Assembly: GCA_016927325.1 (NCBI GenBank)
Contig: JAFGMY010000079.1
Coordinates: forward strand, 1 to 54,921
DNA: 54,921 bases
Source of the DNA: Actinomycetota bacterium
GTDB lineage: Bacteria; Actinomycetota; Geothermincolia; Fen-727; Anoxymicrobiaceae
Direction of reading: 5' to 3'
The position numbers and the translations under genes were made by a program. The notes beneath the pieces were generated by a model. The model saw nothing but the letters and a program-made list of their open reading frames with translations. It was not told the origin of the DNA and ran no database searches. Below, piece by piece: positions 39,986 through 54,876 of the stretch. Within the stretch, counting starts at the first letter, position 1. Each line of letters begins with the position of its first letter.

Positions 39986-40384
39986 TTGGACGGTGCGAAG
40001 AGGAACGAACTTCAGGAGGCTTTGGAGCAGCTCCTGGAAACATCCAAGGATATTGAAGCTGCGGCCGTGGTAAGCATGGACGGATTTCCAATGGCTTCAA
40101 TAATTCCTGAGGGATATGAAAGTGAAAGGCTGGGCGCAATGTCCGCGGCTCTATTGAGCCTTGGTGAAAGAACGGCGAATGAGTTAAAGCGCGGTGAGTT
40201 GGCCCAGGTCTTCGTTGAAGGTTCCCAGGGGTATGTCTTTGTTCTTGCCGCGGGTGAAGATACGGTATTGACGGCTGTGGTGAAACGCGGCGGAAAGCTG
40301 GGAATGGTCCTCTACGATATTCGCAAAACGGCGAAACGGGTAGCTGGGATTGCAGGGTCTCATCTACAGGCCGAAGTCGAGTAA
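39986..40384 (+). CDS. Roadblock/LC7 (MglB-like) protein
   Basis: IEAAAVVSMDGFPMAS, RLGAMSAALLSLGER, GELAQVFVEG..GYV; AGGAGG SD. Confidence 0.92.
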   Translation: MDGAKRNELQEALEQLLETSKDIEAAAVVSMDGFPMASIIPEGYESERLGAMSAALLSLGERTANELKRGELAQVFVEGSQGYVFVLAAGEDTVLTAVVKRGGKLGMVLYDIRKTAKRVAGIAGSHLQAEVE

Positions 40385-40399
40385 ATTAACGGGGTACAA

Positions 40400-43300
40400 A
40401 TGCCGCTAAAGGGAAACCTAAAAGATTTCAGCCTTCCCGATTTATTTCAATTGATTCATTTCGGGAAGAAAAGTGGCAAGCTTACCATCTCGAGAGGTGA
40501 CATAGAAGGATATGTGTGCTTCCGGGATGGTGATGTGACTTACGCCACCCATAATACGAATAAAGTATTGATAGGTCAGCTGCTCGTGCGCGCACGGGTT
40601 GTAACCGACAAGCAGGTCGCGGAAGCTCTTGAGCTGCAGAAGACGGTACACAAGGACAAGCTGATAGGCAGCATCCTGGTGGAGCTCAAATACATTACGG
40701 ATGAAACGCTCGAGCTCTTCATCAAGGAGCAGATAAAGGAATCGGTATTTAATCTGCTGATGTGGAATGACGGAGCTTTCGATTTCGATCCCGACGATAA
40801 GCTCGAAGAGGACATCGGCGTTTCAATGGGTGCGGAAGAGCTCATCCGGGAAAGCAGGAAGCGTCTCGGCGAATGGATGGATATCGAAAGCAGGATCCCG
40901 ACGCTTGATGCGATTTTCTCCAAGACTTCCGCTGGAAAGAAAAATCCGGAAAGGCTGAAAATACCGGAAGAGGAGGTATTGACCCTTGAATACATTGACG
41001 GTACGAATACCGTCAGGGATATCGCCAGGCAGAAGGGTGAGCCGGCTCTCGAGACATGCAAATCCATCAGCAACCTCGCTGGCGCAAAACTCATCAAGCT
41101 GGTAGGTGAGAAGGGTGGCGAATCAGGTGGATCGGCGGAAACTCTTCAAGAAGAAATCGATTTTTATGAGGAAGAGTCCGCTACGCTGACTGAGACAAAG
41201 CCGCCTGATGAGGGAACACTTGAGTATTATAAATGGCTCGCGCTCCAGGAAGCCATGAACTGTGAAAGAGTAGGTATTTTCAAGGCGGCGGCCCGCGAAA
41301 AGGTAAGCGAGGAAGGACCCTTAGTCGTAAAAGAAGCACCGGAAGACAACTCGTCAAAGGCTGAAGCTGAAGAAGTTGAAGAGGAAGAAGAAGTTGGGGT
41401 AATAAAGAAACTGGTCATTGACGGGTTGGAGAAACCGGAAGATTTCGCTGTCGACTGGTCCGACGACCTTATCGGGATGCTGGACAAAGAAAAAGCTGAT
41501 GATGAGATAAGTGAAAGCATAAGAGCGAACCATGTCGATCTGGATGAAAAAGATGACTTAATCGGAATTTCGCTGGAAGGCTTCGAAGATATGGTGCCGG
41601 AAAAAGACCTGGCCGATGAGGGACTCAGAGGGCCCCTGACCGGTGAGACTCTTGATGACGGGGGCTCTTCTCTTCTCTCCGAAGAGGACATCGAAAAGCT
41701 TATGGGTTTGAAATCAAAGCCAAGAGAAGAAATGAGCCGTGAGGAGTTGCTCACTTTTGACCAGCCAACTTACCCGATTATTGAACCGATGCCGGGCGAG
41801 CGTGATGAACTCTCAGTTGAGGAAGAAGTTGCGCGCGAAGAAGCTGACTCCATGGAGGAAAGGGCCAGGAAAGTGCTGGCCGAGATAATGGAGGGCAGGG
41901 AAGGAAGGGAAGACTACACTTTCGATTCACAGAAGGAACAGGAAGAGGAAGATAAAGCGGAGACCTATTCTCTGGAGGAACTATCAGACATTTTCGAGGA
42001 TGGATCGGAAGCCGGGGAAGAAGAGGTTGTCAAAACCGAGGTTGAAGAAGTAGTCGTTGAAGCTGCGGAAGAAGAGTATTTGGATTCAGGTCGGGAGGAA
42101 TACGCGGTAGCGGAAACGGCGGCGGAAGTTGCAGAAGAAGAGCCGGTTGAGGTTGAAGAAGAGGTCCCGGTGATAGAGGTTGACAAGGAAGTCACCGGAG
42201 TTGAGCTTGAGGCGGAAACCGAAGAAGATTCTCTTGAATATTACAAGAAGCTTGCTCTGGAGAACGATACGGAGATACTAGACGCGGAGTTCGTGGCTGA
42301 CGGAGAAACCGCTGAAGAGATAATAGCTCCGGAAAAGATCATTAGAGAGGTTGAAGCTGAGGTTGAGGAAGAGGCAGCTGAAGAGGAGACAGTTGAAGAA
42401 GTAGCTGAAGCAGCGGATGAAGAAGTCGCCGAAGGTGAGCCCGAGGAAGAAGTCGCCGAGGTTGAGGAGGAAGTCGCCGAAGCTGAGCCCGGGAAAGAGA
42501 CAGCTGAAGAGGAAGCGGCCGAAGAAATAGCCGAAGCTGAGGAGGAAGTTGTTGAAGCTGAAGCAGCGGAGGAAGTCGCCGAAGCTGAACCCGGGAAGGA
42601 GACAGCTGAAGAGGAAGCGTCCGAAGAAATAGCCGAAGCTGAGGAAGAAGTCGCCGAAGCTGAGCCCGAAGAAGGAGTCGCCGAAGCTGAGCCCGGGAAA
42701 GAGACAGCTGAAGAGGAAGCGGCCGAAGAAATTGCCGGGATTGAGGAAGAAGTTGTTGAAGCTGAAGCAGCGGAGGAAGTCGCCGAAGCGGAAGCCGCCG
42801 GGACTGAGGAAGAAGCTGCTGAAACAGCAGGAGAAGTCGCCGAGGTCGAGGTTGAGGCTGAGGCAGTTGAAGAAATAGCTGAAGCAGCGGAGGAAGTTGC
42901 CGAAGCTGAACCCGGGAAAGAGACAGCTGAAGAGGAAGCAGCTGAAGAAATTGTCGGGACTGAGGAAGAAGTTGTTGAGGCAGCGGAGGAAGTTGTTGAA
43001 GAGGACACCGCCGAGGAAGTTGAAGAAATAGCTGAAGCAGTGGAAGAAGAAGTTGTTAAAGCTGAAGTAGCGGAAGAAGTCGCCGAGGTTGAGGTTGAGG
43101 AAGATGCGGCCGAAGAGGAAGCAGTTGAAGAAATAGCCGAACCCGGGGAAGAAGTCTCCGAGGTGGCGGAGGAAGTTGCCGATATGCTTGATGAGCTGGA
43201 GAGCCTTGAAGCGGAAGAGTCGGCTGAAGAGAATGAAATCCAGGGCCGTGTTATTCAGTTCGATAAAGCATCCACAAAACAAGATCAGGACGAAGATGTG

Positions 43301-44662
43301 CTTATTATCGTCCAGGAGGAAAGCGAACCACGCGTCAGGTTGGATGAGATGCCCGAGGCGGCCGCTCTTGAGCTGGAGATCGATTCAGAGGAGGAGTCGC
43401 CGGAAGAGGCTCTGGATGATATAGGAAGCGCTCTGGAGATGAGCGAAGAGCTCATGGATGAAACGGAAATACCGCTTGTTTTTGATGAGAGTGGTTCGTC
43501 TGTTGAGATGGAAGATGCTGAAGCGGAAAAGGCTGCCTCGGAAGATGAGGAAGAGGAGCTTGTGATAGAGGGATTGGAGGAGTCGCCGGGGGATTTGATT
43601 CCGGAACACAGTGAATCATCACCCGATCTTGCCGAAGTCATAGATATTACGGGTACAGACAAGACAAAAGTCCCGGAGGATGAAGTGGCGGAAGTCCTGA
43701 CCGGGATTTCCCCTGCAGAAACCGAGATCGCCGCCGCCGAAGAGGAAAGCGATACAGCACAAGCCGACGTTGAAGCTTCAACTCATGAGGCCGAAGCACA
43801 GGTTATTCCGGAAGAGGAGACCGCCGAAGAAGTAAGTGAAGTTTTTACTGAGGCGCTCGAGCCCGAAACCGCTTATCCGGAAGAGGAGTTGGCCACAGAA
43901 GCGGTGGAAGAGGAAGAAGGGGCCGGTGCGCGGTATATCAAGACGGAAGAACCGGCAGCGGAAACCGTTGAGCAGCCGGAAGCCGGAGAGCCGGCCGCAG
44001 CTTTGGAGGAAATGGCGGCCGACATGGTTCCGGAGCCGACTGCATATGAAGAAGATGAAATGCCGGCACAGGCGCCGGTTGAGGATATAACTGATGAACT
44101 GCAGGCAGGGGGTGTGGTTGTGGCGGTGGAAGAGCCGGGCATCGGCACCGACGAACTTGCTGAAATCACTGGTGGGTACTCCCTTCCCCAGGGCGAGACA
44201 GGCAGTGCCGAGATGGAAGCCGTCGTGTCGGACGGTGCGGAAACCGGAGAGGATGAAGAAGAGGAGTGGGAAGAGGAGTACGAAGAAGAAGAGTATGAGT
44301 ATGAGGATGAAGAGGAAGAGATCGGGGAAGAGGTCGAGCAAGAGATTGAGGAAGTGGAAGAGGAGTACGAGGAAGAAGCTGAAGAGCCTGGACTATTTGA
44401 TTCAATGCGGGTGAGGGGCAAGAGGGACGCGGGAACGAGTTTACTGGATCTGGAGACCCTTGAACTCGAACAGGAGTTAAAAGACCTGGTAGGTATACCA
44501 CAGACACAGAAGAAGAGAAGGCCTGTTGATGCGGATGAAGCAGGTGATAAAGGTAAGAAAAAGGAAAAGAAGAGCAGAGGATTCATGTCCCGCGGCAGAG
44601 GCCGCAAGGAGGTCAACAAGGGATCAGGTGAGAAGACTGTAAATGACCTGGATGAGTTCTAG
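40400..44662 (+). CDS. DUF4388-domain protein with about 1150-aa acidic low-complexity region
   Basis: MPLKGNLKDFSLPDLFQLI..GKKSGKL...VFNLLMWNDGAFDF is DUF4388-like; followed by a small wHTH-like segment, then Glu/Ala/Val-rich repeats and a basic C-terminus. Confidence 0.85.
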   Translation: MPLKGNLKDFSLPDLFQLIHFGKKSGKLTISRGDIEGYVCFRDGDVTYATHNTNKVLIGQLLVRARVVTDKQVAEALELQKTVHKDKLIGSILVELKYITDETLELFIKEQIKESVFNLLMWNDGAFDFDPDDKLEEDIGVSMGAEELIRESRKRLGEWMDIESRIPTLDAIFSKTSAGKKNPERLKIPEEEVLTLEYIDGTNTVRDIARQKGEPALETCKSISNLAGAKLIKLVGEKGGESGGSAETLQEEIDFYEEESATLTETKPPDEGTLEYYKWLALQEAMNCERVGIFKAAAREKVSEEGPLVVKEAPEDNSSKAEAEEVEEEEEVGVIKKLVIDGLEKPEDFAVDWSDDLIGMLDKEKADDEISESIRANHVDLDEKDDLIGISLEGFEDMVPEKDLADEGLRGPLTGETLDDGGSSLLSEEDIEKLMGLKSKPREEMSREELLTFDQPTYPIIEPMPGERDELSVEEEVAREEADSMEERARKVLAEIMEGREGREDYTFDSQKEQEEEDKAETYSLEELSDIFEDGSEAGEEEVVKTEVEEVVVEAAEEEYLDSGREEYAVAETAAEVAEEEPVEVEEEVPVIEVDKEVTGVELEAETEEDSLEYYKKLALENDTEILDAEFVADGETAEEIIAPEKIIREVEAEVEEEAAEEETVEEVAEAADEEVAEGEPEEEVAEVEEEVAEAEPGKETAEEEAAEEIAEAEEEVVEAEAAEEVAEAEPGKETAEEEASEEIAEAEEEVAEAEPEEGVAEAEPGKETAEEEAAEEIAGIEEEVVEAEAAEEVAEAEAAGTEEEAAETAGEVAEVEVEAEAVEEIAEAAEEVAEAEPGKETAEEEAAEEIVGTEEEVVEAAEEVVEEDTAEEVEEIAEAVEEEVVKAEVAEEVAEVEVEEDAAEEEAVEEIAEPGEEVSEVAEEVADMLDELESLEAEESAEENEIQGRVIQFDKASTKQDQDEDVLIIVQEESEPRVRLDEMPEAAALELEIDSEEESPEEALDDIGSALEMSEELMDETEIPLVFDESGSSVEMEDAEAEKAASEDEEEELVIEGLEESPGDLIPEHSESSPDLAEVIDITGTDKTKVPEDEVAEVLTGISPAETEIAAAEEESDTAQADVEASTHEAEAQVIPEEETAEEVSEVFTEALEPETAYPEEELATEAVEEEEGAGARYIKTEEPAAETVEQPEAGEPAAALEEMAADMVPEPTAYEEDEMPAQAPVEDITDELQAGGVVVAVEEPGIGTDELAEITGGYSLPQGETGSAEMEAVVSDGAETGEDEEEEWEEEYEEEEYEYEDEEEEIGEEVEQEIEEVEEEYEEEAEEPGLFDSMRVRGKRDAGTSLLDLETLELEQELKDLVGIPQTQKKRRPVDADEAGDKGKKKEKKSRGFMSRGRGRKEVNKGSGEKTVNDLDEF
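42470..42951 (+). repeat. About 102-bp (34-aa) coding tandem repeat
   Basis: Unit starting GAAGTCGCCGAAGCTGAGCCCGGGAAAGAGACAGCTGAAGAGGAAGC (EVAEAEPGKETAEEEA) recurs at 42470, 42572, 42674, degenerate at 42776, and at 42893. Confidence 0.85.
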
Positions 44663-44677
44663 AAACTTGGAGGTTGT

Positions 44678-45217
44678 TTGGATCGTATCTACAAGATCCT
44701 CGTTGCCGGTCCCTTCAATTCCGGAAAGACGACGTTTATCAGTTCCATAAGCGATATAGATGTCGTGTCCACTGAGCGCGATACCGGGGTTGGTAAGAAA
44801 AAGTGCGGGACGACCGTAGCCATGGATTTCGGCCGTATCGCACTCAAGGGTGGGAATGTCATGCATCTGTACGGCACTCCCGGCCTCAAGCGTTTCGATT
44901 TCATGTGGGAAGTGCTCTCCGGAGGCATTCTGGGGTATGTGCTCCTGATTGATGGAACGAGGCCTTCTACCCATGAGAAAGCCCGGTCGGTTCTGGAGTC
45001 TTTTGAGGGCAAGCTGGAAGTCCCGGTAGTGGTCGGGATTACGAGATCCGACCGCCGGAACTGCATGGGCCCCGCGAAAGCAAGAGAAAAATTGGGCCGG
45101 AGCGACCTCGAGATTATCCCCTGCGATGCACGGAGAGTGCAGGACGTAAAAGCTGTTCTTGTCGCGTTGCTGGACAAAGTAAAGGAACAAGAGGGGACGG
45201 TCCGAAGGGTCGTTTGA
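44678..45217 (+). CDS. MglA/CvnD-like small Ras-superfamily GTPase (ATP_bind_1 type)
   Basis: G1 GPFNSGKTT, G2 TTVAMDFG, G3 LYGTPGL, RFDFMW, G5 CDAR. Confidence 0.9.
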   Translation: MDRIYKILVAGPFNSGKTTFISSISDIDVVSTERDTGVGKKKCGTTVAMDFGRIALKGGNVMHLYGTPGLKRFDFMWEVLSGGILGYVLLIDGTRPSTHEKARSVLESFEGKLEVPVVVGITRSDRRNCMGPAKAREKLGRSDLEIIPCDARRVQDVKAVLVALLDKVKEQEGTVRRVV

Positions 45218-45235
45218 GTTTGGACGAGGCTTAAA

Positions 45236-46102
45236 ATGCACATAGATGGTGATACACGGCTTGCGGGTATTATTGGGAACCCCCTCCATCACACGATGTC
45301 GCCCGCCTTGCATAACGCCGCATTTGATTATCTTGGCTTGAATTGGTGTTATATTCCATTTCCGGTTGAGAGGTCATCGGTAAAAGAAGCTGTTGAGGGA
45401 ATGAAGGCGCTGGGTTTAGTCGGCTTGAATGTAACGATGCCGTTCAAAACCGAAGTTATACCGCTGCTGGATGAAGTGGCGGTTTTCGCCGAGACGGTAG
45501 GCGCGGTAAATACAATTCTGCTGGATAAGGGAAAGCTGATCGGCTATAACACCGACGGAAGGGGTTTCTACACCGCACTCGCCAAAGACCTCGGATACGA
45601 GGTTAAAGGCCGGAAAGTGCTGGTAATGGGTGCCGGTGGAGCCGCGAGGAGCGTTACCGTTTCACTTGCTCTGGCGGGGTGCGCCTCGATTACAATTCTT
45701 AACAGGTCGCTTGAAAAGAGTGAGCGGCTGGTGGGGATCATATCAAAGAGCGCGCCCGGTGTCCGGGTTGCATGTCTGAGGCCTGACGAGGATTACGATA
45801 TGGTGGTTGCGGAGTCGGACATTATTATTAATGCTACTCCCATTACCAATTTCAACGGTTCCGTTCTGAGGGTGCCGGTGTCAATGTTGAACAGGAATCA
45901 ACTGGTATGTGATCTGAATTATACAGTTTATCAACCACCGTTTCTTCAGGAAGCCTCCGCGAGAGGGGCGCGCGTGATAGACGGCAAGGGCATGCTGCTC
46001 TATCAGGCCGCGGCGGCGTTTGAGATATGGACGGGTCTGGAAGCGCCGGTCGAAGTGATGCGGATGGCACTGCTCAGGGCACTGGAGGAGGCCCGCATTT
46101 GA
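45236..46102 (+). CDS. aroE: Shikimate dehydrogenase
   Basis: HTMSPALHN, NVTMPFK, GAVNT, NTDG, GAGGAA, MLLYQAA. Confidence 0.96.
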   Translation: MHIDGDTRLAGIIGNPLHHTMSPALHNAAFDYLGLNWCYIPFPVERSSVKEAVEGMKALGLVGLNVTMPFKTEVIPLLDEVAVFAETVGAVNTILLDKGKLIGYNTDGRGFYTALAKDLGYEVKGRKVLVMGAGGAARSVTVSLALAGCASITILNRSLEKSERLVGIISKSAPGVRVACLRPDEDYDMVVAESDIIINATPITNFNGSVLRVPVSMLNRNQLVCDLNYTVYQPPFLQEASARGARVIDGKGMLLYQAAAAFEIWTGLEAPVEVMRMALLRALEEARI

Positions 46103-47882: not shown

Positions 47883-48959
47883 GTGGAAAGCAAGGCTTTA
47901 AGACTTGATATCAACGAGTTGCTCAAGGAGGTTTTGGAAAGAGGGGCATCCGACCTTCATCTAACCGTTGGCGTTCCACCCGTTCTGCGCATAAACGGTG
48001 TTCTACAGAGAATGGACCTCCCAAAAATGACCAGCAACGATACTCGCGATCTGGTTTACAGTATTCTCACAGCCAGGCAGAGGGAAGCCCTTGAAAGCAA
48101 TCTCGAGTTTGACCTCTCCTACTCGGTTCCCGGCAGCGCAAGGTTCAGGGTAAACGCGTTTTTCCAGCGCAACAGCGTGGGCGCGGCGTTCAGGATAATC
48201 CCGTACCGCATCAAGACGGTGGAGGAGCTCAGGCTGCCTCTTATTATCAAGGAATTCGCGCGCCTTCCCAGAGGTTTTGTGCTGGTTACCGGGCCGACCG
48301 GCCAGGGTAAATCCACCACGCTCGCGACTATAGTGGATCTCGTGAACTCGACAAGGGAAGAGCATATCATTACCGTCGAGGACCCGATAGAGTTTCTTCA
48401 TGTACACAAGAAATGCATTGTGAACCAGAGGGAAGTGGGTTCGGACACCCACTCTTTCGCAAACGCCTTGAAGTTTGTGTTGAGACAGGACCCCGACGTC
48501 ATACTGATCGGCGAAATGCGTGATCTGGAGACGATATCGACCGCTCTTACCGCGGCTGAAACCGGACACCTGGTATTCGCTACACTTCACACACAGGACG
48601 CCCCGCAGTCTATTGATAGAATTATTGACGTATTCCCGACTTACCAGCAGCAGCAGGTGAGGCTGCAGCTCTCCACCACGCTCCAGGCGATCGTGACACA
48701 GCAGTTGGTACCCACCAAAGACCGCAGGAGCAGGGTTGCGGCTTGTGAGATCATGATAGCCACTGCAGCGATTAGAAATATGATACGCGACGGGAAAGTC
48801 CATCAGATCTATTCCGCGATGCAGGCTGGAGGTCAGCTCAGGATGCAGACCATGGATGCGTCGCTCGCCTCGCTGTTCCGTGCCGGGCAGATTACCTTTG
48901 AGACGGGGCTGGCCAGGTCGCACAACAAGGATGACTTCAGAAGGCTTGTCGGCCAGTAA
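47883..48959 (+). CDS. pilT: Type IV pilus retraction ATPase PilT
   Basis: ASDLHL, GPTGQGKSTT, EDPIEF, NQREVG, AAETGHLV, AIRNMIRD. Confidence 0.96.
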   Translation: MESKALRLDINELLKEVLERGASDLHLTVGVPPVLRINGVLQRMDLPKMTSNDTRDLVYSILTARQREALESNLEFDLSYSVPGSARFRVNAFFQRNSVGAAFRIIPYRIKTVEELRLPLIIKEFARLPRGFVLVTGPTGQGKSTTLATIVDLVNSTREEHIITVEDPIEFLHVHKKCIVNQREVGSDTHSFANALKFVLRQDPDVILIGEMRDLETISTALTAAETGHLVFATLHTQDAPQSIDRIIDVFPTYQQQQVRLQLSTTLQAIVTQQLVPTKDRRSRVAACEIMIATAAIRNMIRDGKVHQIYSAMQAGGQLRMQTMDASLASLFRAGQITFETGLARSHNKDDFRRLVGQ

Positions 48960-49004: not shown

Positions 49005-49033
49005 TTTAAGTGTACCTATTATTAGTTCGATAA
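49005..49033 (+). promoter_or_regulatory. Putative sigma-28-type promoter upstream of pilC
   Basis: TTTAAG-N15-TTCGATAA in the AT-rich pilT-pilC gap. Confidence 0.5.
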
Positions 49034-49070
49034 GTTTAATGACAGGCAAACTCGCGTCGGGAGGTCAATC

Positions 49071-50291
49071 TTGACTACAGAATTTTCATATACGGTCAGG
49101 GACAAAGCCGGCAAGGAAATAACCGGCACCCTGGAAGCTGACAACGCGGACGTTCTCGCAGGCAAACTGAGCCAGATGGGGTATACGGTTGTCGCCATCG
49201 ATGAAATCAAGCAGTCGCTTGGAAAAAAGGAAATCAGAATCTTCGGGGCAAAGAAGGTGGAGAGCCATGAAATAGTTATTTTCACCCGGCAGTTCGCCAC
49301 CATGATCAACGCCGGCCTTCCTCTGATCAAGTGCCTGAGCATTCTCGCCCAGCAGACGGAGTCCACTTCTCTTTCCGATATAATCGCCGAGTGCCAGAAA
49401 GATGTCGAAGCGGGGCACTCGCTTTCGGATGCCCTGGCGAAGCACCCCAAGGTCTTCCAGAGGTTGTACGTCGCGATGGTACGTGCCGGAGAACTCGGCG
49501 GTATGCTGGATGACGTGCTGCTCAGGATAGCGAACCAGCTGGAGCGCGAGGAGGAGATAAGGCACAAGATCAAGTCCGCGCTTACTTATCCAATCGCCAT
49601 TGGTGCTATAACACTGATGCTGATGGGATTGATGATTTTTTTCGTCGTTCCGAAGTTCGCGGCCATGTTCGCGCAGATGGGGGGCTCACTTCCGGCTTTC
49701 ACCCAGTTTCTTGTCAATATCAGCCATTTCGCGACTGGCATCGGGGGGCTGATTCTGGTGATAGTAATTATAGGCCTGGTCATCGCTTTCAGACGCTTCA
49801 AGGCCACCGATACGGGGCGTTACACGATTGACAGGATTAAGCTGAAGATGCCTATTGTCGGTGTACTCTTTCACAAGAACGCCCTGTCAAAGTTTTCGAG
49901 GACCCTCGGAACACTGCTTTCATCAGGTGTTCCAATACTCGGGGCTCTTGAGATCACCGGTGAAACAACCGGGAATATGGTTGTCACCAAGACCCTGGAG
50001 GACGTCAGAGAGAGCGTCAAAGAGGGTGAGACTATCGCCAAGCCGCTTTCACAGTCGAAGGTGTTTCCACCGATGGTTACCCAGATGATAGCGATAGGTG
50101 AAGAGACCGGAGCGCTTGATGTCATGCTTTCAAAAGTGAGCGATTTCTACGACTCGGAGGTCAACTCGGCGGTTGACAGCTTGACCTCAATGCTGGAGCC
50201 GGTCATGATGGTTGTCCTTGGCGGGGGCGTCGGGACCATCGTGGTCGGTCTGTATCTGCCTATATTCCGTGTCATAACAATGATCAAATAA
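49071..50291 (+). CDS. pilC: Type IV pilus platform protein PilC (T2SS-F family)
   Basis: FTRQFATMINAGLPL, AGELGGML, ALTYP, IGEETGALD, LEPVM, LYLPIF. Confidence 0.96.
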   Translation: MTTEFSYTVRDKAGKEITGTLEADNADVLAGKLSQMGYTVVAIDEIKQSLGKKEIRIFGAKKVESHEIVIFTRQFATMINAGLPLIKCLSILAQQTESTSLSDIIAECQKDVEAGHSLSDALAKHPKVFQRLYVAMVRAGELGGMLDDVLLRIANQLEREEEIRHKIKSALTYPIAIGAITLMLMGLMIFFVVPKFAAMFAQMGGSLPAFTQFLVNISHFATGIGGLILVIVIIGLVIAFRRFKATDTGRYTIDRIKLKMPIVGVLFHKNALSKFSRTLGTLLSSGVPILGALEITGETTGNMVVTKTLEDVRESVKEGETIAKPLSQSKVFPPMVTQMIAIGEETGALDVMLSKVSDFYDSEVNSAVDSLTSMLEPVMMVVLGGGVGTIVVGLYLPIFRVITMIK

Positions 50292-50313
50292 GAACTCGGA
50301 TTTGGAAAAGTGT

Positions 50314-50342
50314 CTAAAGAAACCTTACTCGAATGCCGAATA
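50314..50342 (+). promoter_or_regulatory. sigma-28 (WhiG/FliA)-type promoter of the major pilin
   Basis: CTAAAG-N15-GCCGAATA, equivalent to TAAA-N16-GCCGAA. Confidence 0.7.
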
Positions 50343-50404
50343 ATAAACTTGAAGGGATGTATATCCTGTAAGAATGAGTATTAAAGCGAAGGAGGTGAAG
50401 TATT

Positions 50405-50761
50405 ATGAGAAAACTACTTAGCAGGTCAGAGGGATTCACCCTGATTGAGCTCATGATTGTAATCCTGATTATCGCAATCCTAGTAGCTATCGCGGTTCCT
50501 GTTTTCCTGAACGCAAGGGCAAACGCCCAGAAAAGGACATGTCAGGCGAACCAGAGGACTATCGACAGTTCAATCCAGAGCTATGAGTCGACTCTGACCG
50601 ATCCGGCGTATCCAGCTTCGTTGGCTGATATGACGATGCCTGGAACGAAGACGCTGAAGAATATTCCGAAGTGTCCGGCACACGATACAAACCAGTACAC
50701 ATATGTTAACAGTATTCCGCCTTATGTAGTGTGTCCTAATGATTCTGGACACACAATATAG
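50405..50761 (+). CDS. pilA: Type IV pilin (probable major pilin)
   Basis: Class III signal MRKLLSRSEG/FTLIELMIV with Glu5; perfect AAGGAGGTG SD; own promoter and a downstream hairpin. Confidence 0.92.
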   Translation: MRKLLSRSEGFTLIELMIVILIIAILVAIAVPVFLNARANAQKRTCQANQRTIDSSIQSYESTLTDPAYPASLADMTMPGTKTLKNIPKCPAHDTNQYTYVNSIPPYVVCPNDSGHTI

Positions 50762-50793
50762 CATCGGAGTAATGTCAGGGTTTTGAAAATTGA

Positions 50794-50822
50794 AGAGCCG
50801 GCGTGAAGTAAGCGCCGGCTCT
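50794..50822 (+). terminator. Hairpin after pilA (terminator or mRNA stabiliser, no U-tract)
   Basis: AGAGCCGGCG-N9-CGCCGGCTCT. Confidence 0.6.
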
Positions 50823-50933
50823 ACGATATTGGGAACAGTTTTCTGGCACGCACCGTATCTGGACGAATCCTGCTGACGTGAAAAACAGTTCATGGTGGGT
50901 TCGCTTCACATGCGTCGGGGGTGTGAGTTGATA

Positions 50934-51287
50934 ATGAATAAAATGGCTTTCAGGGTGGAGGGTTTTACATTAATCGAGCTTATGATCGTCATACTGATAA
51001 TAGCAATCCTGGTAGCTATCGCGGTTCCTGTTTTTCTGAGTGCAAGGGCCAACGCCCAGAAAAGGACTTGCCAGGCGAACTTAAGGACGGTCGACGGATG
51101 CGTCCAGAGCTACTCTGCCAGCTTCGGAGCAACTGTGTATCCAGCACGTCTTTCAGATATGATCGAGCCTGGAACCAGGCTGATGAAATCCGATCCCATG
51201 TGTCCGGCAGGGGAGATGGACTACCTGTGGATAAGCTCAGAGCCGCCTCATATCTCGTGTCCAAACGAAACCGAACACACAATTTGA
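50934..51287 (+). CDS. Second type IV pilin, paralog of pilA
   Basis: MNKMAFRVEG/FTLIELMIVILIIAILVAIAVPVF; N-terminal helix nearly identical to the first pilin. Confidence 0.9.
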   Translation: MNKMAFRVEGFTLIELMIVILIIAILVAIAVPVFLSARANAQKRTCQANLRTVDGCVQSYSASFGATVYPARLSDMIEPGTRLMKSDPMCPAGEMDYLWISSEPPHISCPNETEHTI

Positions 51288-51348
51288 ATAATGTATTAAT
51301 GGACCCAGGCGTGTCGACGGATTAAGTAACAAAGGACCGGGTGTCCGG

Positions 51349-53643
51349 TTATTCGTCAGTTGTTGAAGAACCGTTGTCTTCCAGTTTTTGACGGGCCGAA
51401 GGTCCGTAAGCTCCGGTTTTATCCAGTTCTATAACCTTCACGTATTTTGTTTGTGCTTCTCTTGGCCGTCCCAGACCAGTGAGAGTATCACCATACACGA
51501 GGTAAGCTTTCGCGTTCCCCGGGTCCATTTCGACCGCCTTTTCAATCTCGCGGAGAGCCGCGGGGAAGTTGCCTGCCATATTCAAGACTTCCGCGAGATC
51601 GATGTAATAACTTACCGTGTCCGGCTTAAAAGCTATTAGCTTGTCGAGTTCCGCTATCGCCTGCGGATACCGGCCGGTTGCCGTGTATGCCATGGCAAGG
51701 CTCGGGGAAAGGAAGTCGGGGTCGATCTTACGGGCACCGGGGAGTATCCGGACCGTTTCTTCATAGTTTTCTTCCTTGTTGAGAGACAGGCCGAGAAGCT
51801 CAAAAGCGTTTGAGAATGTGTTGCAGCTGTACAGGGTGGGAACGTAGATGTTTTTCATGAACTTTTCAATGGTGTCTTCATAAACCGAGGTTGCCTCCGG
51901 GAGCATTTTCTTCGACAGAAGAACATTGGCTTTGAACAGCATCGGAAGAAGCACCGATTCGCGGGCGTCGGTGTCCACGTTTTCACTGAAACTGCCTTTA
52001 TTGGAGTATTTCGCGGCTGTGTTGTTGTTCAAATCCGGCTCAACGCCCGGAGGTAAGATGCGGACGAGGTACCCAGACCAGGAAACGTTCCAGTTGAACT
52101 CCACAAAATTGCTTACAGCAGAAAACATATTAAGGAATCCCAGGTTCCTTTGCACGATATTAATGTAATCGAGGGCCGCCGGGTCGGGCTTGTGCCCGGT
52201 ACGCGTTCTTAAAAGGAGATCCGAACCTCGAAAACCCGGGACTGTTGTCGCTTCGGGTATCACAAGCCGGGCCTCCGGATTTACTCCCTCGACCGTCTGC
52301 ATGTACATGCAGGGAAAGAAAATGTTGTCGTCCTCGAAGAATACGATTGATTCGGGGCCCGCAGTATCCAGTATATCCCGGGCCATATCCTCTGCGTAAG
52401 TGTAGCGGCTCTTGTCGATCTTGCCGTAGTGGATCAAACATGAAACCACCGGGCAAAGGGCAAGGATAAAAATGACCGATACGAGTGAGGCCTTTCCCGC
52501 GGCTTTCCATGCCGTGTGCTTGAAAGATCCGGCCATTTTCACGGCCCCGGCTGCGGCGAAGCCGATCCACAGCGAAAATATCATGTAGCTGGGATAGTAG
52601 AAATGGGCCCTCAACACCGGCTCCAGCTGGCTGTAGGTCATTACCGGCAAAAGGGCGAGAATGAACAGAAACAGGAAGAACAACGGGTACTTCCTGCGCT
52701 TGTCGAACACAGAGTAGATAAATCCGGCGCCCCCCAGCCAGGCGAAGTACGGGAACTCGGTGTTGAGTGTTCCGAAGTATCGCCAGAAACGTGATGGCAG
52801 GTAAAGATAGGGGTATTTAAAGAGACCGCTTCTCTGGTGGCGGAATGTGACATGCTCAAACCATCGGGCGGGGGTGGAAGGGTCTCCGTAGTTATAGGCG
52901 GGGCCGCGGAAAGCGGCTGCTGGTTCGTAAATGTAAGGTAGAAGGCCGAGTGCAAGAAACGCCGCCATTCTAAGCAGGTTGCGGGGCGCGAGTGCGTCTT
53001 TCCAGCTTGTGTCAATGAAGAAGAAGACGAACGCGGGCAGCAGAAACAGGGTCGTTATGTGATTGGATATGGCCAGCCCGAAACTGAAAGCGAAGAGACA
53101 GAGAATATTGTCGGCTTTTTTCCTGTTTTCATCCTTGATGGAGCTTTCCCACTTGAGTGCAAGGAGAATGAGAAGTGCCATGAAGAATGTATTCAGGCTG
53201 TAAGTCTCGGGGATCACGGTCTGGTACCAGTAGGAGTAGCTGAATGAGAAGGCCAGCGCTCCAACGATTCCACCCGTGCGGCTCCGGTAAATCCTGAAGA
53301 TTATGAGGTACATCAGGCATGCGGTAAGCGAAGCGAAAAGGCCGGAGTACAAGCTTACCCTGAACGCCAGGGGGCCTACGGGGAAGAGCAGGGTGAAAAG
53401 CCTGGCGGTAATCATATACAACGGAGAGCCGGGGCCGTGGATGTTGCCGGTGGTGGCAATACCGAGAAGGAAGTCTCCCGAATCGGAAAACGTGACGGTC
53501 CGTGCCGCAGGCAGAATATGAAGGATAATGGTTAGAATGAACAAAAAGATTAGTATAAGACGGTTGTCTATGTTCCCGCCGGGGAAAGCAGCCGCCTTGA
53601 TTTTCTTGAAGTCTGAAATGGAGGCACTCTTTATTTTCAGCAT
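51349..53643 (-). CDS. DUF2723 / TMEM260-like GT-C membrane glycosyltransferase with C-terminal TPRs
   Basis: DSGDF acidic motif after TM1, IHGPGSPLY, WYQTVIPETYSL, AISNH, YNYGDP, DNIFFP..YMQ; many TM helices; TPR-like C-terminus. Confidence 0.8.
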   Translation of the reverse strand: MLKIKSASISDFKKIKAAAFPGGNIDNRLILIFLFILTIILHILPAARTVTFSDSGDFLLGIATTGNIHGPGSPLYMITARLFTLLFPVGPLAFRVSLYSGLFASLTACLMYLIIFRIYRSRTGGIVGALAFSFSYSYWYQTVIPETYSLNTFFMALLILLALKWESSIKDENRKKADNILCLFAFSFGLAISNHITTLFLLPAFVFFFIDTSWKDALAPRNLLRMAAFLALGLLPYIYEPAAAFRGPAYNYGDPSTPARWFEHVTFRHQRSGLFKYPYLYLPSRFWRYFGTLNTEFPYFAWLGGAGFIYSVFDKRRKYPLFFLFLFILALLPVMTYSQLEPVLRAHFYYPSYMIFSLWIGFAAAGAVKMAGSFKHTAWKAAGKASLVSVIFILALCPVVSCLIHYGKIDKSRYTYAEDMARDILDTAGPESIVFFEDDNIFFPCMYMQTVEGVNPEARLVIPEATTVPGFRGSDLLLRTRTGHKPDPAALDYINIVQRNLGFLNMFSAVSNFVEFNWNVSWSGYLVRILPPGVEPDLNNNTAAKYSNKGSFSENVDTDARESVLLPMLFKANVLLSKKMLPEATSVYEDTIEKFMKNIYVPTLYSCNTFSNAFELLGLSLNKEENYEETVRILPGARKIDPDFLSPSLAMAYTATGRYPQAIAELDKLIAFKPDTVSYYIDLAEVLNMAGNFPAALREIEKAVEMDPGNAKAYLVYGDTLTGLGRPREAQTKYVKVIELDKTGAYGPSARQKLEDNGSSTTDE

Positions 53644-53799
53644 GAAAAGATTATAGACCGGGACAATGCGATTTAAAAAGCCCGGTGGTTACTTTCAGGC
53701 AAACGTGAGGTTGTATTTTTTAAACGCAACTCCGGGAACTATGCTTTATCAGACTTGTAACGGCGGGGAAAGATCAGTGGAAACTGAAGGAGACATCAA

Positions 53800-54723
53800 T
53801 TGACCTGGTTTTATTATCTGGTTGCGGCGGGCTTCGGCCTTATACTCGGCAGCTTCTTCAATGTTTGTATCTACAGGATACCGATCGGGATGACCCTGGG
53901 TGACAGGTCTATTTGCCCCCACTGCGGCGCCGGTGTCAAATGGTATGATAACGTGCCGCTTGCAAGTTTTGTCGCCCTCCGGGGCAAATGTCGTAGCTGT
54001 AAAGGCCGGATCTCGTGGCGCTACCCGCTGGTAGAGGCCTTGAGCGGCGCCTTGTTTGCCTCCACTTACTGGTGGAGCATTAATGTCGTCCCGGATTACC
54101 TGGGGGTAGAAGGCGGTCCGTTCGTGCCCGAGCTTCTGATCGGCCTGCTTTTTATCTCAATATTGCTGATAGTCGCGTTTATTGACTATGACCACGGCAT
54201 TATCCCGAATGTGGTGATTATTCCAGGCGCGGCCGCCATGTTTTTTCTTGTGGTCGGAGTATCCATATATAGAGAAGATCCGATCAGGATCGCACAGGCT
54301 GCGGCTACCGGTATACTGTTCGCCGTGTTTCTATTCTTAATCGGCTTGATTGTCGGAACCGCGGTATTGAAGGGTGCCGAGCAAGAAGAGGCAGACAGTA
54401 AAGAAGATGTGGGCCCCTTCAGGTACAGTGAAAAGCATTGTAAAGATGATGACAACGGGGAAGAGGAGGAAGACGAACTGCCGCTGGCACTCGGTTTCGG
54501 CGACCTTAAACTTGCGTTGTTCATGGGTCTTGCCCTCGGGTATTTCAACTGGTTTTTTATCCTTGTCGCTGTCATCACCGGTTGTGTTTTGTCATTAATA
54601 ATTGCCATAATTTACCAGATTCCAGGAAGAAAAAAAATTACTTTTGGACCGTTCCTTGCTGTTGGATCCATTGTGGCCCTTTACTGGGGGCCATACTTCT
54701 ATCAGTTGCTCTTTCACTATTAA
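53800..54723 (+). CDS. pilD: Prepilin peptidase/N-methyltransferase (A24)
   Basis: GSFFNVCIYRIP, SICPHC, GKCRSC, catalytic FIDYD and GFGDLKL, FGPFL. Confidence 0.95.
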   Translation: MTWFYYLVAAGFGLILGSFFNVCIYRIPIGMTLGDRSICPHCGAGVKWYDNVPLASFVALRGKCRSCKGRISWRYPLVEALSGALFASTYWWSINVVPDYLGVEGGPFVPELLIGLLFISILLIVAFIDYDHGIIPNVVIIPGAAAMFFLVVGVSIYREDPIRIAQAAATGILFAVFLFLIGLIVGTAVLKGAEQEEADSKEDVGPFRYSEKHCKDDDNGEEEEDELPLALGFGDLKLALFMGLALGYFNWFFILVAVITGCVLSLIIAIIYQIPGRKKITFGPFLAVGSIVALYWGPYFYQLLFHY

Positions 54724-54870: not shown

Positions 54871-54876
54871 AGAAGA

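What the first reader, a model, noticed from the sequence alone, without database searches (positions are those of the whole stretch)
39986..54723. Roadblock - giant acidic DUF4388 scaffold - small GTPase cassette joined to a type IVa pilus operon: candidate pilus polarity/positioning system
Seen: three co-oriented genes with 15-nt gaps (roadblock, DUF4388 protein, GTPase) run with short gaps into aroE-pilB-pilT-pilC-pilA. Established: in Myxococcus the MglA GTPase and its roadblock GAP MglB set the pole where T4P act, and long acidic proteins (FimV/HubP) are polar landmarks in Proteobacteria. Actinobacterial roadblock/GTPase 'conservon' modules normally come with a sensor kinase and DUF742, and neither is present here. 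Inference: this is a kinase-less MglAB-like switch with its own landmark or scaffold protein that controls pilus localisation or direction in a probable actinobacterium. I do not know of a described system with this layout.
Basis: partly seen in the sequence, partly recalled or inferred. Interest (0 to 1): 0.85.

Follow-up and report, generated by a model that had tools for sequence, protein, structure and literature searches.

The report
GTPase–roadblock–PATAN module in pilus operon
Three genes for a small GTPase, a roadblock protein and a giant acidic PATAN-domain protein sit inside a type IV pilus operon, an arrangement conserved across Actinomycetota that probably regulates the pilus motor, although this genome carries an unusually altered copy.

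Summary
Roadblock (39986-40384), a 1420-aa DUF4388 protein (40400-44662) and a small GTPase (44678-45217) run with 15-nt gaps into aroE-pilB-pilT-pilC-pilins-pilD.

DUF4388 is the PATAN domain. In cyanobacteria it binds PilB and PilC, and its gene association with MglA/MglB homologues is already in print.

New here:
- The trio lies beside pilB in 20 of 20 fetched relatives.
- PATAN lies on pilB's contig, within about 6 kb, in at least 58 of 89 PATAN-bearing Actinomycetota genomes.
- In other classes the trio abuts pilB directly.

The GTPase is MglA-family (groups 2-5 type). It lies outside the conservon clade and is not Myxococcus-type. PATAN-protein relatives share a PATAN core, a MshE-like four-helix insert, a winged helix and a cationic C-terminal helix. 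The giant acidic stretch is a class-specific linker, not a FimV-like landmark.

The window's copy is derived:
- The catalytic Gln is replaced (GTPGL).
- A second roadblock gene survives only as a relic.
- The PATAN domain evolved fast.
- The C-terminal helix is degenerate.

Control of the pilus motor is inferred, not shown.

The parts
39467..39828 (+). Probable decayed relic of a second roadblock gene (Robl2): an N-terminal piece at 39467-39583 and a C-terminal piece at 39757-39828 in another frame, with an internal stop
   Evidence: tblastn of 7 Robl2 proteins of same-family relatives: 6 of 7 hit 39757-39828 (E 3e-4 to 6e-4 in this small database) and 1 hits 39467-39583 (E 0.007). The 174-nt spacing equals the 58 residues missing between the pieces. 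0 of 100 shuffles reach the best score, but the margin is small (25.4 vs max 25.0 bits).
39986..40384 (+). Roadblock/LC7 protein (MglB/CvnB-like), 132 aa, TTG start with AGGAGG 7 nt upstream
   Evidence: Pfam Robl_LC7 2.3e-17. Best solved relatives are Robl_LC7 proteins 7f8m_A (2.4e-20) and CvnB5 3leq_A (2.8e-11). RBS seen.
40400..44662 (+). 1420-aa PATAN (DUF4388) protein, whole gene
   Evidence: ORF; PF14332 98.7 bits (cut-off 25); only one PF14332 match in the genome.
40571..40732 (+). Alpha-clip insert in the PATAN domain (res 58-111): a MshE-N-like four-helix, c-di-GMP-type motif, degenerate at the key Arg and Gly positions
   Evidence: NCBIfam NF053729 40.9 bits (cut-off 38). The model aligns to MshE with c-di-GMP, 5htl_B, Z 9.4, rmsd 2.0, 59 residues. 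The family profile hits PilF at 1.5e-15 and MshE at 1.4e-8. The relaxed 24-residue motif of Wang 2016 is matched 0 times in the window.
40880..41110 (+). Winged-helix domain (res 161-237) after the PATAN core
   Evidence: AF2 model pLDDT 85.7. VIA matches to winged helices of the SEA complex and GATOR1 (Z 10.0 and 9.9) and to MarR-type regulators (Z about 6).
41150..44494 (+). Polyacidic low-complexity linker (res 251-1365; 38.3% D+E, net -369) with 102-bp tandem repeats at 42412-42978
   Evidence: The part after residue 250 is 540-1220 aa in 17 of the 19 in-class loci listed (2 of these 17 run into N-masked stretches; the other 2 are broken frames), 71-187 aa in other Actinomycetota, and 0-61 aa in the Anaerolineae, Aquificales, Caldisericum and cyanobacterial rows.
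44495..44659 (+). Basic C-terminal segment ending in a degenerate copy of the family's cationic amphipathic helix
   Evidence: Alignment A3 consensus DKxVxKSxxxRIIDGxKxL. The last 14 residues have net charge +1 to +4 in 27 of 27 relatives and -2 in the window; the window has the lowest hydrophobic moment (0.37).
44678..45217 (+). MglA-family small GTPase (179 aa) of the group 2-5 type; the catalytic Gln is replaced by Leu (codon CTC at 44885-44887)
   Evidence: Pfam ATP_bind_1, MMR_HSR1, Ras. Profile top PDB hit is T. thermophilus MglA 3t12, 1.8e-8. G3 is GTPGL in the window and GTPGQ in 49 of 49 rows from 37 other genomes.
45236..46102 (+). aroE (shikimate dehydrogenase), lying between the cassette and pilB in this class only
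   Evidence: TIGR00507 263 bits (cut-off 200). In other Actinomycetota classes aroE lies upstream of the roadblock gene.
46150..47850 (+). pilB extension ATPase with an N-terminal MshE-type motif
   Evidence: T2SSE 2e-138 and MshEN. TIGR02538 653 bits (cut-off 675.65); NF053729 60.5 bits at res 8-60.
47883..48959 (+). pilT retraction ATPase
   Evidence: TIGR01420 485 bits (cut-off 319).
49071..50291 (+). pilC platform protein
   Evidence: T2SSF 7.9e-66, two repeats.
50405..51287 (+). Two prepilin genes (50405-50761, 50892-51287)
   Evidence: N_methyl motif; TIGR02532 above cut-off.
51349..53643 (-). TMEM260-like glycosyltransferase with TPR repeats, kept at this place in some relatives
   Evidence: Pfam. 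Homologue at the same place in L032, L037, L038 and L039: 4 of the 20 loci examined.
53800..54723 (+). pilD prepilin peptidase
   Evidence: A24_N_bact 4.6e-31 and Peptidase_A24.

Best explanation
This is the local version of a conserved actinobacterial accessory module of the type IV pilus (T4P) operon. It has three parts:
- an MglA-family small GTPase of the GTPGQ (group 2-5) type;
- one or two roadblock proteins, the likely GTPase regulators;
- a PATAN-domain adaptor.

The adaptor is built from a PATAN core, a MshE-N-like four-helix 'alpha-clip', a winged helix, a linker of very variable length, and a short cationic amphipathic C-terminal helix.

Most likely mechanism (inferred): the adaptor is the output. 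As in cyanobacterial PatA-type regulators, its PATAN domain would contact the N-terminal part of PilB and the cytoplasmic domain of PilC, and so decide when or where pili are extended. The GTPase, set by the roadblock protein(s), would be the input that the receiver domain provides in PatA-type proteins. The alpha-clip, a homologue of PilB's own N-terminal c-di-GMP-type domain, could add c-di-GMP sensing or mimic PilB.

The giant polyacidic stretch is a class-specific expansion of the linker. Its role is open; a spacer or tether is plausible.

In this genome the module is a derived, probably still functional variant:
- the GTPase lacks the catalytic glutamine, so it is predicted to be hydrolysis-dead, that is locked or constitutive;
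- the second roadblock gene has decayed;
- the PATAN domain and the C-terminal helix have diverged strongly.

Shown: gene content, domain identities, conserved linkage, the substitutions. Inferred: every protein contact and the effect on pili.
For: Identity of the parts.

Linkage to pil genes:
- GTPase homologue in 48 of 61 genomes of the relatives sample, G000 included.
- Roadblock, PATAN and GTPase beside pilB-pilT-pilC in 20 of 20 fetched 15-20 kb loci.
- In a different class (L051) the order is aroE, roadblock, PATAN, GTPase, pilB, with overlapping stops and starts. The same order is seen in L080, L083 and L085; L084 is alike but shows no aroE match.
- In a 301-genome sample of the phylum, PF14332 occurs in 90. 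By my comparison of listed coordinates with PilB hits, it lies on pilB's contig within about 5 kb in 41 of 68 out-of-class genomes (35 of 61 without the unpublished ones) and within about 6 kb in 17 of 21 in-class genomes.
- No terminator-like site falls in the short gaps on the + strand.

Mechanism precedents:
- The PATAN domain of PixE alone binds the PilB1 N-terminal part and the PilC N-terminal domain, and switches phototaxis (passages).
- MglA/MglB genes lie near PATAN genes (passages).

Other support:
- GTPase tree: the window sits in a starred clade of 9 pilus-linked rows, apart from the Streptomyces/Actinomadura clade (99*) and the proteobacterial clade (100*).
- C-terminal helix conserved across 4 phyla.
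- Derived state.
- Q-to-A or Q-to-L at the G3 glutamine abolishes intrinsic and MglB-stimulated hydrolysis in MglA (passages).
- The three ORFs, including 1420 codons, stay open while the neighbouring Robl2 relic is decayed almost beyond recognition. That argues for continued selection.
Against: - No interaction or expression datum exists for these proteins.
- In Chloroflexota (Anaerolineae) the PATAN-GTPase pair is conserved, but no pilB, pilT or pilC match was found within the fetched flanks. 27 of the 28 rows labelled 'P--' are Chloroflexota (25) or Aquificales and cyanobacterial (2); the 28th, Caldisericum L099, has pilC and pilT about 8 kb away. The pair is therefore not tied to pil genes everywhere.
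- In 11 of 68 out-of-class Actinomycetota genomes PATAN and PilB are on different contigs or far apart, and 4 have no PilB match.
- In this class aroE separates the cassette from pilB.
- The block alaS-ruvX-mltG-aroE-pil may be an old syntenic region, so some of the adjacency is inheritance rather than selection.
- The window's alpha-clip fails the published relaxed c-di-GMP motif in both halves.
- The precedent for PATAN binding PilB is yeast two-hybrid in a distant phylum, with PatA-type proteins.
- The catalytic role of the G3 glutamine is shown for group 1 MglA only.
Confidence: 0.55

Rival explanations
1. The GTPase, roadblock and PATAN proteins form a general cell-polarity or envelope-organising switch with targets other than the pilus. 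Its position beside pil genes in Actinomycetota is inherited synteny, not a functional coupling.
For: The PATAN-GTPase pair is conserved in Anaerolineae with no pil gene found in the fetched flanks (27 of 28 'P--' rows). In one Anaerolineales chromosome (L066) its neighbours are a GAF-GGDEF cyclase, a hydrolase and a REC-GGDEF protein. The cassette sits in the housekeeping block alaS-ruvX-mltG-aroE. 11 of 68 out-of-class genomes have PATAN away from PilB.
Against: The cassette sits on either side of aroE in different classes yet stays next to the pil genes. Stop and start codons overlap with pilB in L051. The PATAN domain has a demonstrated PilB/PilC contact in cyanobacteria. The alpha-clip is homologous to PilB's own N-terminal domain.
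Confidence: 0.2
2. In this particular genome the cassette is a decaying, non-functional remnant of the module that relatives still use.
For: - Robl2 relic.
- Loss of the catalytic Gln, unique among 38 genomes.
- PATAN N-domain 52% identical to same-family relatives, which share 88% with each other.
- Loss of Arg and Gly in both halves of the MshE-like motif.
- C-terminal helix turned from cationic to anionic.
- Long terminal branch, 0.63 against a median of 0.13.
Against: All three reading frames are intact, including a 4.3-kb ORF. The Robl2 relic shows that enough time has passed to destroy an unselected gene. The roadblock protein is still 73% identical to relatives. The AF2 model of the N-domain is confident (pLDDT 85.7). 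The P-loop, G2 and G5 motifs are intact.
Confidence: 0.12
3. The giant acidic protein is a FimV/HubP-like polar landmark that anchors the pilus machinery.
For: Extreme length and acidity. An acidic tail of 540-1220 aa is retained in 17 of the 19 in-class loci listed.
Against: No LysM, FimV C-terminal motif or transmembrane segment was found. The acidic part has no conserved sequence and is short or absent in most homologues: 71-187 aa in other Actinomycetota, and 0-61 aa in the Anaerolineae, Aquificales, Caldisericum and cyanobacterial rows. The conserved parts are the PATAN end and the C-terminal helix, so the acidic part behaves as a linker.
Confidence: 0.08
4. It is a reduced actinobacterial conservon (CvnB/CvnD) that signals to some unrelated output.
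For: The ATP_bind_1 hit. Sequence features shared with MglA groups 2 and 3: G4 without Lys, G5 DAR. The roadblock protein's close solved relatives include CvnB5.
Against: No kinase or DUF742 in the locus and no DUF742 match in the genome, which is 82% complete. The Streptomyces/Actinomadura GTPases form a separate starred clade on a long branch. A PATAN partner is not part of conservons.
Confidence: 0.05

Closest known systems
PatA-type (PATAN-REC) response regulators of cyanobacteria (PixE, PixG, LsiR, PilG)
   Same: Same N-terminal PATAN domain (PF14332) with an alpha-clip insert. That domain alone binds the PilB1 N-terminal part and the PilC N-terminal domain and redirects pilus activity (passages).
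   Different: No receiver domain here (no Response_reg hit). A separate small GTPase and a roadblock protein are encoded alongside. There is a winged helix, a long acidic linker and a C-terminal helix instead. The phylum is different.
MglA/MglB polarity switch of Myxococcus xanthus and Thermus thermophilus (MglA group 1)
   Same: A Ras-superfamily GTPase paired with a roadblock protein. T. thermophilus MglA is the best solved sequence match of the GTPase profile (1.8e-8). MglA controls T4P polarity in Myxococcus.
   Different: No intrinsic arginine finger: TT instead of RT in G2. G3 is GTPG(Q/L), not TVPGQ. G4 lacks Lys. MglB does not appear among the roadblock protein's solved matches at E<0.01. 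The genes are embedded in the pil operon, unlike mglBA.
MglA group 5 / group 1 genes 'occasionally' next to PATAN genes (Wuichet & Sogaard-Andersen 2014; Makarova et al. 2006 as cited there)
   Same: The same three-family gene association, noted computationally (passages).
   Different: Those reports describe an occasional neighbourhood with no pilus linkage and no architecture. Here the trio is part of the T4P operon across Actinomycetota. Supplementary tables of that paper could not be seen.
Streptomyces/Mycobacterium conservon (CvnA-D, MfpB)
   Same: Actinobacterial roadblock plus a GTPGQ-type GTPase with an atypical G4 and a DAR G5.
   Different: No CvnA kinase and no DUF742. Separate clade. 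A PATAN partner and pil neighbours instead.
MshE-N / GSPII c-di-GMP-binding domain of MshE, PilF and PilB
   Same: The alpha-clip matches by sequence profile (PilF 1.5e-15, MshE 1.4e-8) and by fold (5htl_B Z 9.4; 8pdk_A Z 7.8). NF053729 is above its cut-off.
   Different: It is inserted in a PATAN domain, not at the head of an ATPase. In the window the first-position Arg and the turn Gly of both 24-residue halves are replaced, so binding is doubtful.
FimV / HubP polar landmarks
   Same: Long and highly acidic.
   Different: No LysM, membrane segment or FimV motif was found. The acidic part is a lineage-specific insert.

Membership tests
MglA family, groups 2-5 (Wuichet & Sogaard-Andersen 2014) | P-loop GxxxxGK[ST] | tested here: met
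   GPFNSGKT.
MglA family, groups 2-5 (Wuichet & Sogaard-Andersen 2014) | Thr in place of the group 1 arginine finger next to the G2 Thr | tested here: met
   TTVAMD is invariant in alignment A1; criterion.
MglA family, groups 2-5 (Wuichet & Sogaard-Andersen 2014) | G3 motif GTPGQ | tested here: not met
   The window has GTPGL (codon CTC). All 49 rows from 37 other genomes have GTPGQ. The family fits; the window's copy has lost the Gln.
MglA family, groups 2-5 (Wuichet & Sogaard-Andersen 2014) | Coupled roadblock (MglB-family) gene | tested here: met
   Robl_LC7 gene 4.3 kb upstream in the same run of genes. It carries the conserved Asp-Gly pair.
MglA group 1 (Myxococcus/Thermus type) | Intrinsic Arg finger and a TVPGQ G3 | tested here: not met
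Actinobacterial conservon (Cvn) | CvnA histidine kinase and CvnC (DUF742) in the locus | tested here: not met
   Neither is among the Pfam hits of the locus. PF05331 has no match in the 82%-complete genome.
Actinobacterial conservon (Cvn) | GTPase within the CvnD clade | tested here: not met
   The Streptomyces/Actinomadura rows form a separate clade (99*) in a quick tree, unrooted and with long branches.
PATAN domain (PF14332) | Match to the family model above its cut-off, with an alpha-clip insert | tested here: met
   98.7 bits against 25. Insert at res 58-111.
PatA-type response regulator | C-terminal receiver (REC) domain | tested here: not met
   No Response_reg hit in 1420 residues.
MshE-N c-di-GMP receptor domain | [quoted passage not shown] | tested here: not met
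   The relaxed pattern of Wang 2016 matches 0 halves in the window, both halves in 3 and one half in 7 of the 25 family members. The HMM NF053729 is nevertheless above its cut-off in the window and in 14 of 25.
MshE-N c-di-GMP receptor domain | Four-helix fold of MshE-N | tested here: met
   5htl_B Z 9.4, rmsd 2.0, 59 aligned.
MshE-N c-di-GMP receptor domain | Binds c-di-GMP | not testable with these tools
   Needs a binding assay.
FimV/HubP | LysM domain, membrane segment, C-terminal FimV motif | tested here: not met
   No such Pfam or NCBIfam hit. Best 19-residue hydropathy 0.84.
Type IVa pilus system | PilB, PilT, PilC, prepilins with an N-methylation motif, PilD, PilM | tested here: met
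   PilB scores 653 bits, just under the TIGR02538 cut-off of 675.65. PilM_2 is at the start of another contig of the genome.

The most novel reading that the evidence does not exclude
Actinomycetota, and by extension the PATAN-GTPase pairs of Chloroflexota, Aquificota and Caldisericota, use a so far undescribed way to steer a type IV pilus motor. A PATAN adaptor is switched by a dedicated GTPGQ-type small GTPase and roadblock protein(s) instead of by phosphorylation. The GTPase or the membrane reads the adaptor's conserved cationic C-terminal helix. The MshE-like clip adds c-di-GMP sensing or competes with PilB's own N-domain. One class has stretched the linker into a polyanionic tether of about 1000 residues. 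The window's lineage has turned the switch into a constitutive, hydrolysis-dead form after losing its second roadblock protein.
Probability: 0.3. Interest if true: 0.75.

Novelty: new variant of a known kind. Interest (0 to 1): 0.6.

Why it matters
Han et al. end their PATAN study with the open question of whether PATAN domains have a conserved role in the spatial and temporal control of type IV pili outside cyanobacteria. A roadblock-PATAN-GTPase trio written into the pilus operon of many Actinomycetota families is the strongest comparative argument for 'yes' that I could find. Some of the carrier genomes in the sample are single-contig assemblies (for example G113, G122, G203, G255), which suggests that culturable carriers may exist for experiments.

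It also links three lines of work that are usually treated apart: MglA-type GTPases, PATAN adaptors and MshE-type c-di-GMP domains. It offers natural variants as ready-made controls: GTPGQ against GTPGL, one against two roadblock genes, and linkers of roughly 20 to 1200 residues.

T4P regulation in monoderm Actinomycetota appears to be little described: my four searches found no paper on this arrangement.

Tried and rejected
- Rfam at gathering thresholds on 38000-54921: no match.
- Complex prediction (PATAN 1-250, C-terminal 60 residues, and the GTPase as partner, each with its alignment): 'no answer', score 0.00. This is not evidence either way.
- Sequencing runs: one DNA holder, a sediment metagenome that is probably the source sample. 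No RNA holder is listed, and the two RNA runs of the same study laid nothing, so co-transcription could not be tested. The Logan contigs that lay on the stretch showed no differing letters where they covered it. One low-support joint (side 25) fell inside the repeats, and I disregard it.
- Foldseek of the N-domain model against the PDB: nothing at E<=0.001. Weak rows to GATOR1 and SEA subunits proved to be winged-helix matches only.
- PATAN core alone (model of Caldisericum L099 res 1-129, pLDDT 81.2): best Z 5.9, below the tool's stated noise level, with no roadblock or longin row listed. Whether the core is a GTPase platform stays open.
- Profile of the N-domain against PDB sequences: hits only through the alpha-clip and weak winged-helix rows; no solved PATAN core.
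- A GGDEF cyclase upstream of PATAN-GTPase in L066 looked like support for a c-di-GMP link, but no match flanking the PATAN-GTPase pair was found in the other Anaerolineae loci; the only other Anaerolineae hits (L058, L064, L071, L075) lie 7-10 kb away and cover only part of the query.
- Hydrogenase remnants in the 714-bp stretch: only E>0.5.
- Promoter and terminator scans: terminator-like sites are no more frequent than in shuffles, and none lies in the gaps.
- Literature for this layout in Actinobacteria: 'DUF4388' (5 papers, none on it), PATAN + Actinobacteria + type IV pil, type IV pili + Actinoplanes missouriensis + pilB, roadblock + pilB + pilT + Actinobacteria (only Wuichet 2014). Subscription papers and supplements were not searchable. 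Makarova 2006 was seen only as cited by others.

Full report
**1. What is there**

On the + strand the window reads as follows:
- alaS, ruvX, mltG;
- 714 bp without an ORF;
- a roadblock/LC7 gene (39986-40384);
- a 1420-codon DUF4388 gene (40400-44662);
- a 179-codon small GTPase gene (44678-45217);
- aroE, pilB, pilT, pilC and two prepilin genes;
- a minus-strand TMEM260-like glycosyltransferase/TPR gene;
- pilD.

The gaps inside the trio are 15 nt each, then 18 nt to aroE and 47 nt to pilB. No terminator-like site lies in these gaps, and such sites are no more frequent than in shuffles. PilT reaches the type IVa PilT/PilU model. PilB scores just under its equivalog cut-off. A PilM gene starts another contig of the same genome. 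The genome is a 2.47-Mb, 178-contig, 82%-complete assembly with one PATAN match, one roadblock match and one such GTPase.

**2. What the three proteins are**

DUF4388 (PF14332) is the PATAN domain.

An AF2 model of residues 1-250 (pLDDT 85.7) shows three units:
- A beta-rich PATAN core.
- A four-helix insert at about residues 55-115. It superposes on MshE-N bound to c-di-GMP (5htl_B, Z 9.4, rmsd 2.0, 59 residues) and on the PilF GSPII-B domain (8pdk_A, Z 7.8).
- A winged helix at residues 161-237.

The family profile finds solved proteins only through the insert: PilF 1.5e-15, MshE 1.4e-8, PilB 2.3e-7. NCBIfam's MshE-related c-di-GMP motif is above its cut-off there (40.9 against 38 bits). It is also above cut-off at the N-terminus of the window's own PilB (60.5 bits).

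The rest of the protein is residues 251-1365, with 38.3% D+E, net charge -369, no hydrophobic segment, and 102-bp tandem repeats. A basic 55-residue end follows.

The GTPase has an intact P-loop, TT in G2, GTPG-L in G3, TRSD in G4 and DAR in G5. By the criteria of Wuichet & Sogaard-Andersen (section 15 read in full) this is the group 2-5 signature, not Myxococcus-type group 1. T. thermophilus MglA is still the best solved sequence match.

The roadblock protein's solved relatives are Robl_LC7 proteins and CvnB5. MglB is not among them at E<0.01.

**3. Conservation of the arrangement**

- The GTPase has a homologue in 48 of the 61 genomes of the relatives sample, the window's own included. This tally includes the unpublished G051.
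- I fetched 20 regions of 15-20 kb around these hits, chosen for long contigs, and laid the window's proteins on them. All 20 have roadblock and GTPase beside pilB-pilT-pilC. PATAN was matched by tblastn in 19 and confirmed by Pfam in the twentieth, L051.
- Nineteen have the window's order with aroE between GTPase and pilB; 18 of these show a second roadblock paralogue upstream (not found in L039).
- The twentieth (L051, another class, high G+C) reads alaS, ruvX, mltG, aroE, roadblock, PATAN, GTPase, pilB, with overlapping stop and start codons.
- A scan of one genome per species with the GTPase alignment (597 hits, best 80 kept) added Actinomycetota loci. L080, L083 and L085 have that second order; L084 is alike but shows no aroE match. 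L106 is alike but has no detectable PATAN match. L077 is a short contig with the trio only.
- The same scan showed other contexts: PATAN-GTPase pairs without pil genes in Anaerolineae; roadblock-PATAN-GTPase in an Aquifex-labelled genome; PATAN-GTPase with pilC/pilT 8 kb away in Caldisericum; roadblock-GTPase-PATAN in a cyanobacterium; GTPase-roadblock without PATAN in beta- and gamma-proteobacteria; and conservon-type loci in Streptomyces and Actinomadura.
- Context labels over the 100 GTPase rows (one of the 101 sources, L106, was dropped for a short match; L052 and L041 are the same contig) were: PATAN+roadblock+pilB 26, PATAN only 28, roadblock only 29, PATAN+roadblock 5, none 12.

In a 301-genome sample of the phylum, PF14332 occurs in 90 genomes and PilB in 221. 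I compared the listed coordinates by hand.
- Of the 68 out-of-class genomes with PATAN: 41 have it on a contig with a PilB hit within about 5 kb; 11 have it on another contig or far away; 4 have no PilB hit; 12 could not be judged because their PilB rows were among the 209 not listed.
- Of the 21 in-class genomes: 17 have both on one contig within about 6 kb. In the other 4 PATAN and the syntenic pilB are not on one contig: in 3 PATAN sits on a different contig from the GTPase and pilB (plausibly a break in the repetitive gene); in G031 no GTPase and only a 54%-identical PilB were found.
- Six of the 41 and one of the 11 are unpublished genomes. Without these seven the figure is 35 of 61.

**4. 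Where the GTPase belongs**

In a quick maximum-likelihood tree (unrooted, SH-aLRT only) the groupings are as follows:
- The proteobacterial rows split off (100*).
- The Streptomyces/Actinomadura rows form their own long-branched clade (99*).
- The window sits in a starred clade of nine pilus-linked rows of its own family and order.

The other pilus-linked Actinomycetota, the Anaerolineae and the Aquificales rows lie in the same large group without resolved order. With no kinase or DUF742, the module is not a conservon.

**5. Architecture shared by the adaptor's relatives**

Full-length PATAN proteins next to these GTPases end, in four phyla, in the same 15-residue or so amphipathic motif, consensus DKxVxKSxxxRIIDGxKxL. 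The last 14 residues carry net charge +1 to +4 in 27 of 27 relatives.

Between the folded N-terminal part and this helix the length varies (residues after position 250):
- 0-61 in the Anaerolineae, Aquificales, Caldisericum and cyanobacterial rows (18-61 in the four Anaerolineae; in the very short proteins the helix itself lies before residue 250);
- 71-187 in other Actinomycetota classes;
- 540-1220 in 17 of the 19 in-class loci listed (two of these run into N-masked stretches); the other two are broken or shifted frames;
- 1170 in the window, where the tail is 37% D+E against 23-30% in the class.

The giant acidic region is therefore a class-specific expansion of a linker. This, with the lack of LysM, a FimV motif or a membrane segment, speaks against the FimV/HubP analogy.

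The helix is not in PatA-type proteins, which carry a receiver domain at that end. I therefore infer that it belongs to the GTPase-coupled input side, binding the GTPase, the roadblock protein or the membrane. This is untested. The one complex prediction gave no answer.

**6. The window's copy is unusual**

- *G3 motif.* It is GTPGL (CTC, two changes away from either Gln codon), while all 49 rows from 37 other genomes have GTPGQ. In MglA, Q82A or Q82L abolishes both intrinsic and MglB-stimulated hydrolysis (passages). By analogy, this GTPase should bind but not hydrolyse GTP.
- *Second roadblock gene.* The sampled relatives carry a NiFe-hydrogenase gene pair (Pfam-checked in L038 and L040) and a second roadblock gene between mltG and the roadblock gene. 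The window has 714 bp instead. These contain two collinear, frame-shifted pieces resembling the N- and C-terminal parts of Robl2, with exactly the expected 174-nt spacing and an internal stop. The shuffle control is only marginal (25.4 bits against a maximum of 25.0 in 100 shuffles), so I call it a probable relic.
- *PATAN N-domain.* It is 52% (50-53) identical to seven same-family relatives, which share 88% (78-100) with each other. For comparison: GTPase 57 against 69; roadblock 73 against 88; aroE 75 against 85; PilB 73 against 78; PilT 87 against 94; PilC 74 against 81.
- *MshE-like motif.* In both halves the leading Arg-type position and the turn Gly are replaced. The published relaxed pattern matches 0 halves here, both halves in 3 and one half in 7 of 25 family members.
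- *C-terminal helix.* It has turned anionic (-2) with the lowest hydrophobic moment.
- *Tree branch.* The GTPase's terminal branch is 0.63 against a median of 0.13.

All three frames are open, including 1420 codons, next to a relic that is almost erased. I therefore read this as a rewired but selected variant rather than a dying one, and I keep the latter as a rival.

**7. Mechanism**

The only experimental handle on PATAN is cyanobacterial. The PATAN domain of PixE alone binds the PilB1 N-terminal part and the PilC N-terminal domain in yeast two-hybrid, localises to the membrane, and is enough to reverse phototaxis. The authors note that the alpha-clip resembles the start of PilB and may share or compete for a partner (passages).

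Put together with operon membership in Actinomycetota and the MglA/MglB precedent for GTPase-set pilus polarity, the best-supported model is a GTPase-gated PATAN adaptor acting on PilB/PilC. The main counter-evidence is the Anaerolineae pair without pil neighbours, and the fact that part of the actinobacterial adjacency may be inherited synteny.

**8. Novelty**

The gene association MglA/MglB-PATAN and the PATAN-PilB contact are in print. The following did not turn up in four literature searches (supplements and subscription journals not searchable):
- embedding of the trio in the T4P operon across Actinomycetota;
- the shared winged-helix, linker and C-terminal-helix architecture;
- the polyacidic expansion;
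- the natural Gln-less variant.

I rate it a new variant of a known kind, of moderate to high interest.

Noticed in passing
window 39467-39828: Probable frame-shifted relic of a second roadblock gene that most sampled relatives keep intact upstream of the roadblock gene. The window's genome has only one Robl_LC7 match.
   Followed up: yes
window 44885-44887: The G3 catalytic Gln of the GTPase is replaced by Leu (CTC). This is unique among 38 genomes compared. The equivalent change abolishes hydrolysis in MglA.
   Followed up: yes
L038 813-3144; L040 270-2531: Relatives carry a NiFe-hydrogenase small and large subunit pair between mltG and the second roadblock gene. The window lacks it, with no remnant found.
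   Followed up: partly
window 51349-53643 (-): A TMEM260-like O-mannosyltransferase-type protein with C-terminal TPRs lies between the pilin genes and pilD. It is kept at that place in L032, L037, L038 and L039, so it may glycosylate pilins.
   Followed up: no
window 46171-46329 (PilB res 8-60): PilB's N-terminus matches the MshE-related c-di-GMP motif model strongly (60.5 bits, cut-off 38), yet neither half fits the published relaxed pattern exactly.
   Followed up: partly
L066 6640-9003: In one Anaerolineales chromosome a GAF-GAF-GGDEF cyclase lies directly upstream of PATAN-GTPase, and a REC-GGDEF protein lies 2.5 kb downstream. No match flanking the pair was found in the other Anaerolineae loci.
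   Followed up: yes
window 42412-42978: Tandem 102-bp repeats (3.5-4.9 copies, 75-78% matches) inside the acidic region. One Logan contig shows a low-support joint skipping 41393-42925, which may reflect repeat-length variation or misassembly.
   Followed up: no
G000 contig C130:446-1471 (L133): PilM lies at the very start of another contig, so the pil cluster may continue beyond the window's end after pilD.
   Followed up: no
L051 13394-14413 (-): In a high-G+C relative the roadblock protein carries a C-terminal extension of about 230 residues, rich in Pro and Ala with short repeats. In that genome the long low-complexity tail sits on the roadblock protein rather than on the PATAN protein.
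   Followed up: no
window 1-35000: Housekeeping context: aminotransferase, feoB, an inositol-monophosphatase-family gene, a DUF3048 gene, secD, relA/spoT, hisS, aspS, an acetyl-CoA-synthetase-like gene. A 665-aa ORF (10910-12907, -) has no Pfam hit at 1e-5.
   Followed up: no
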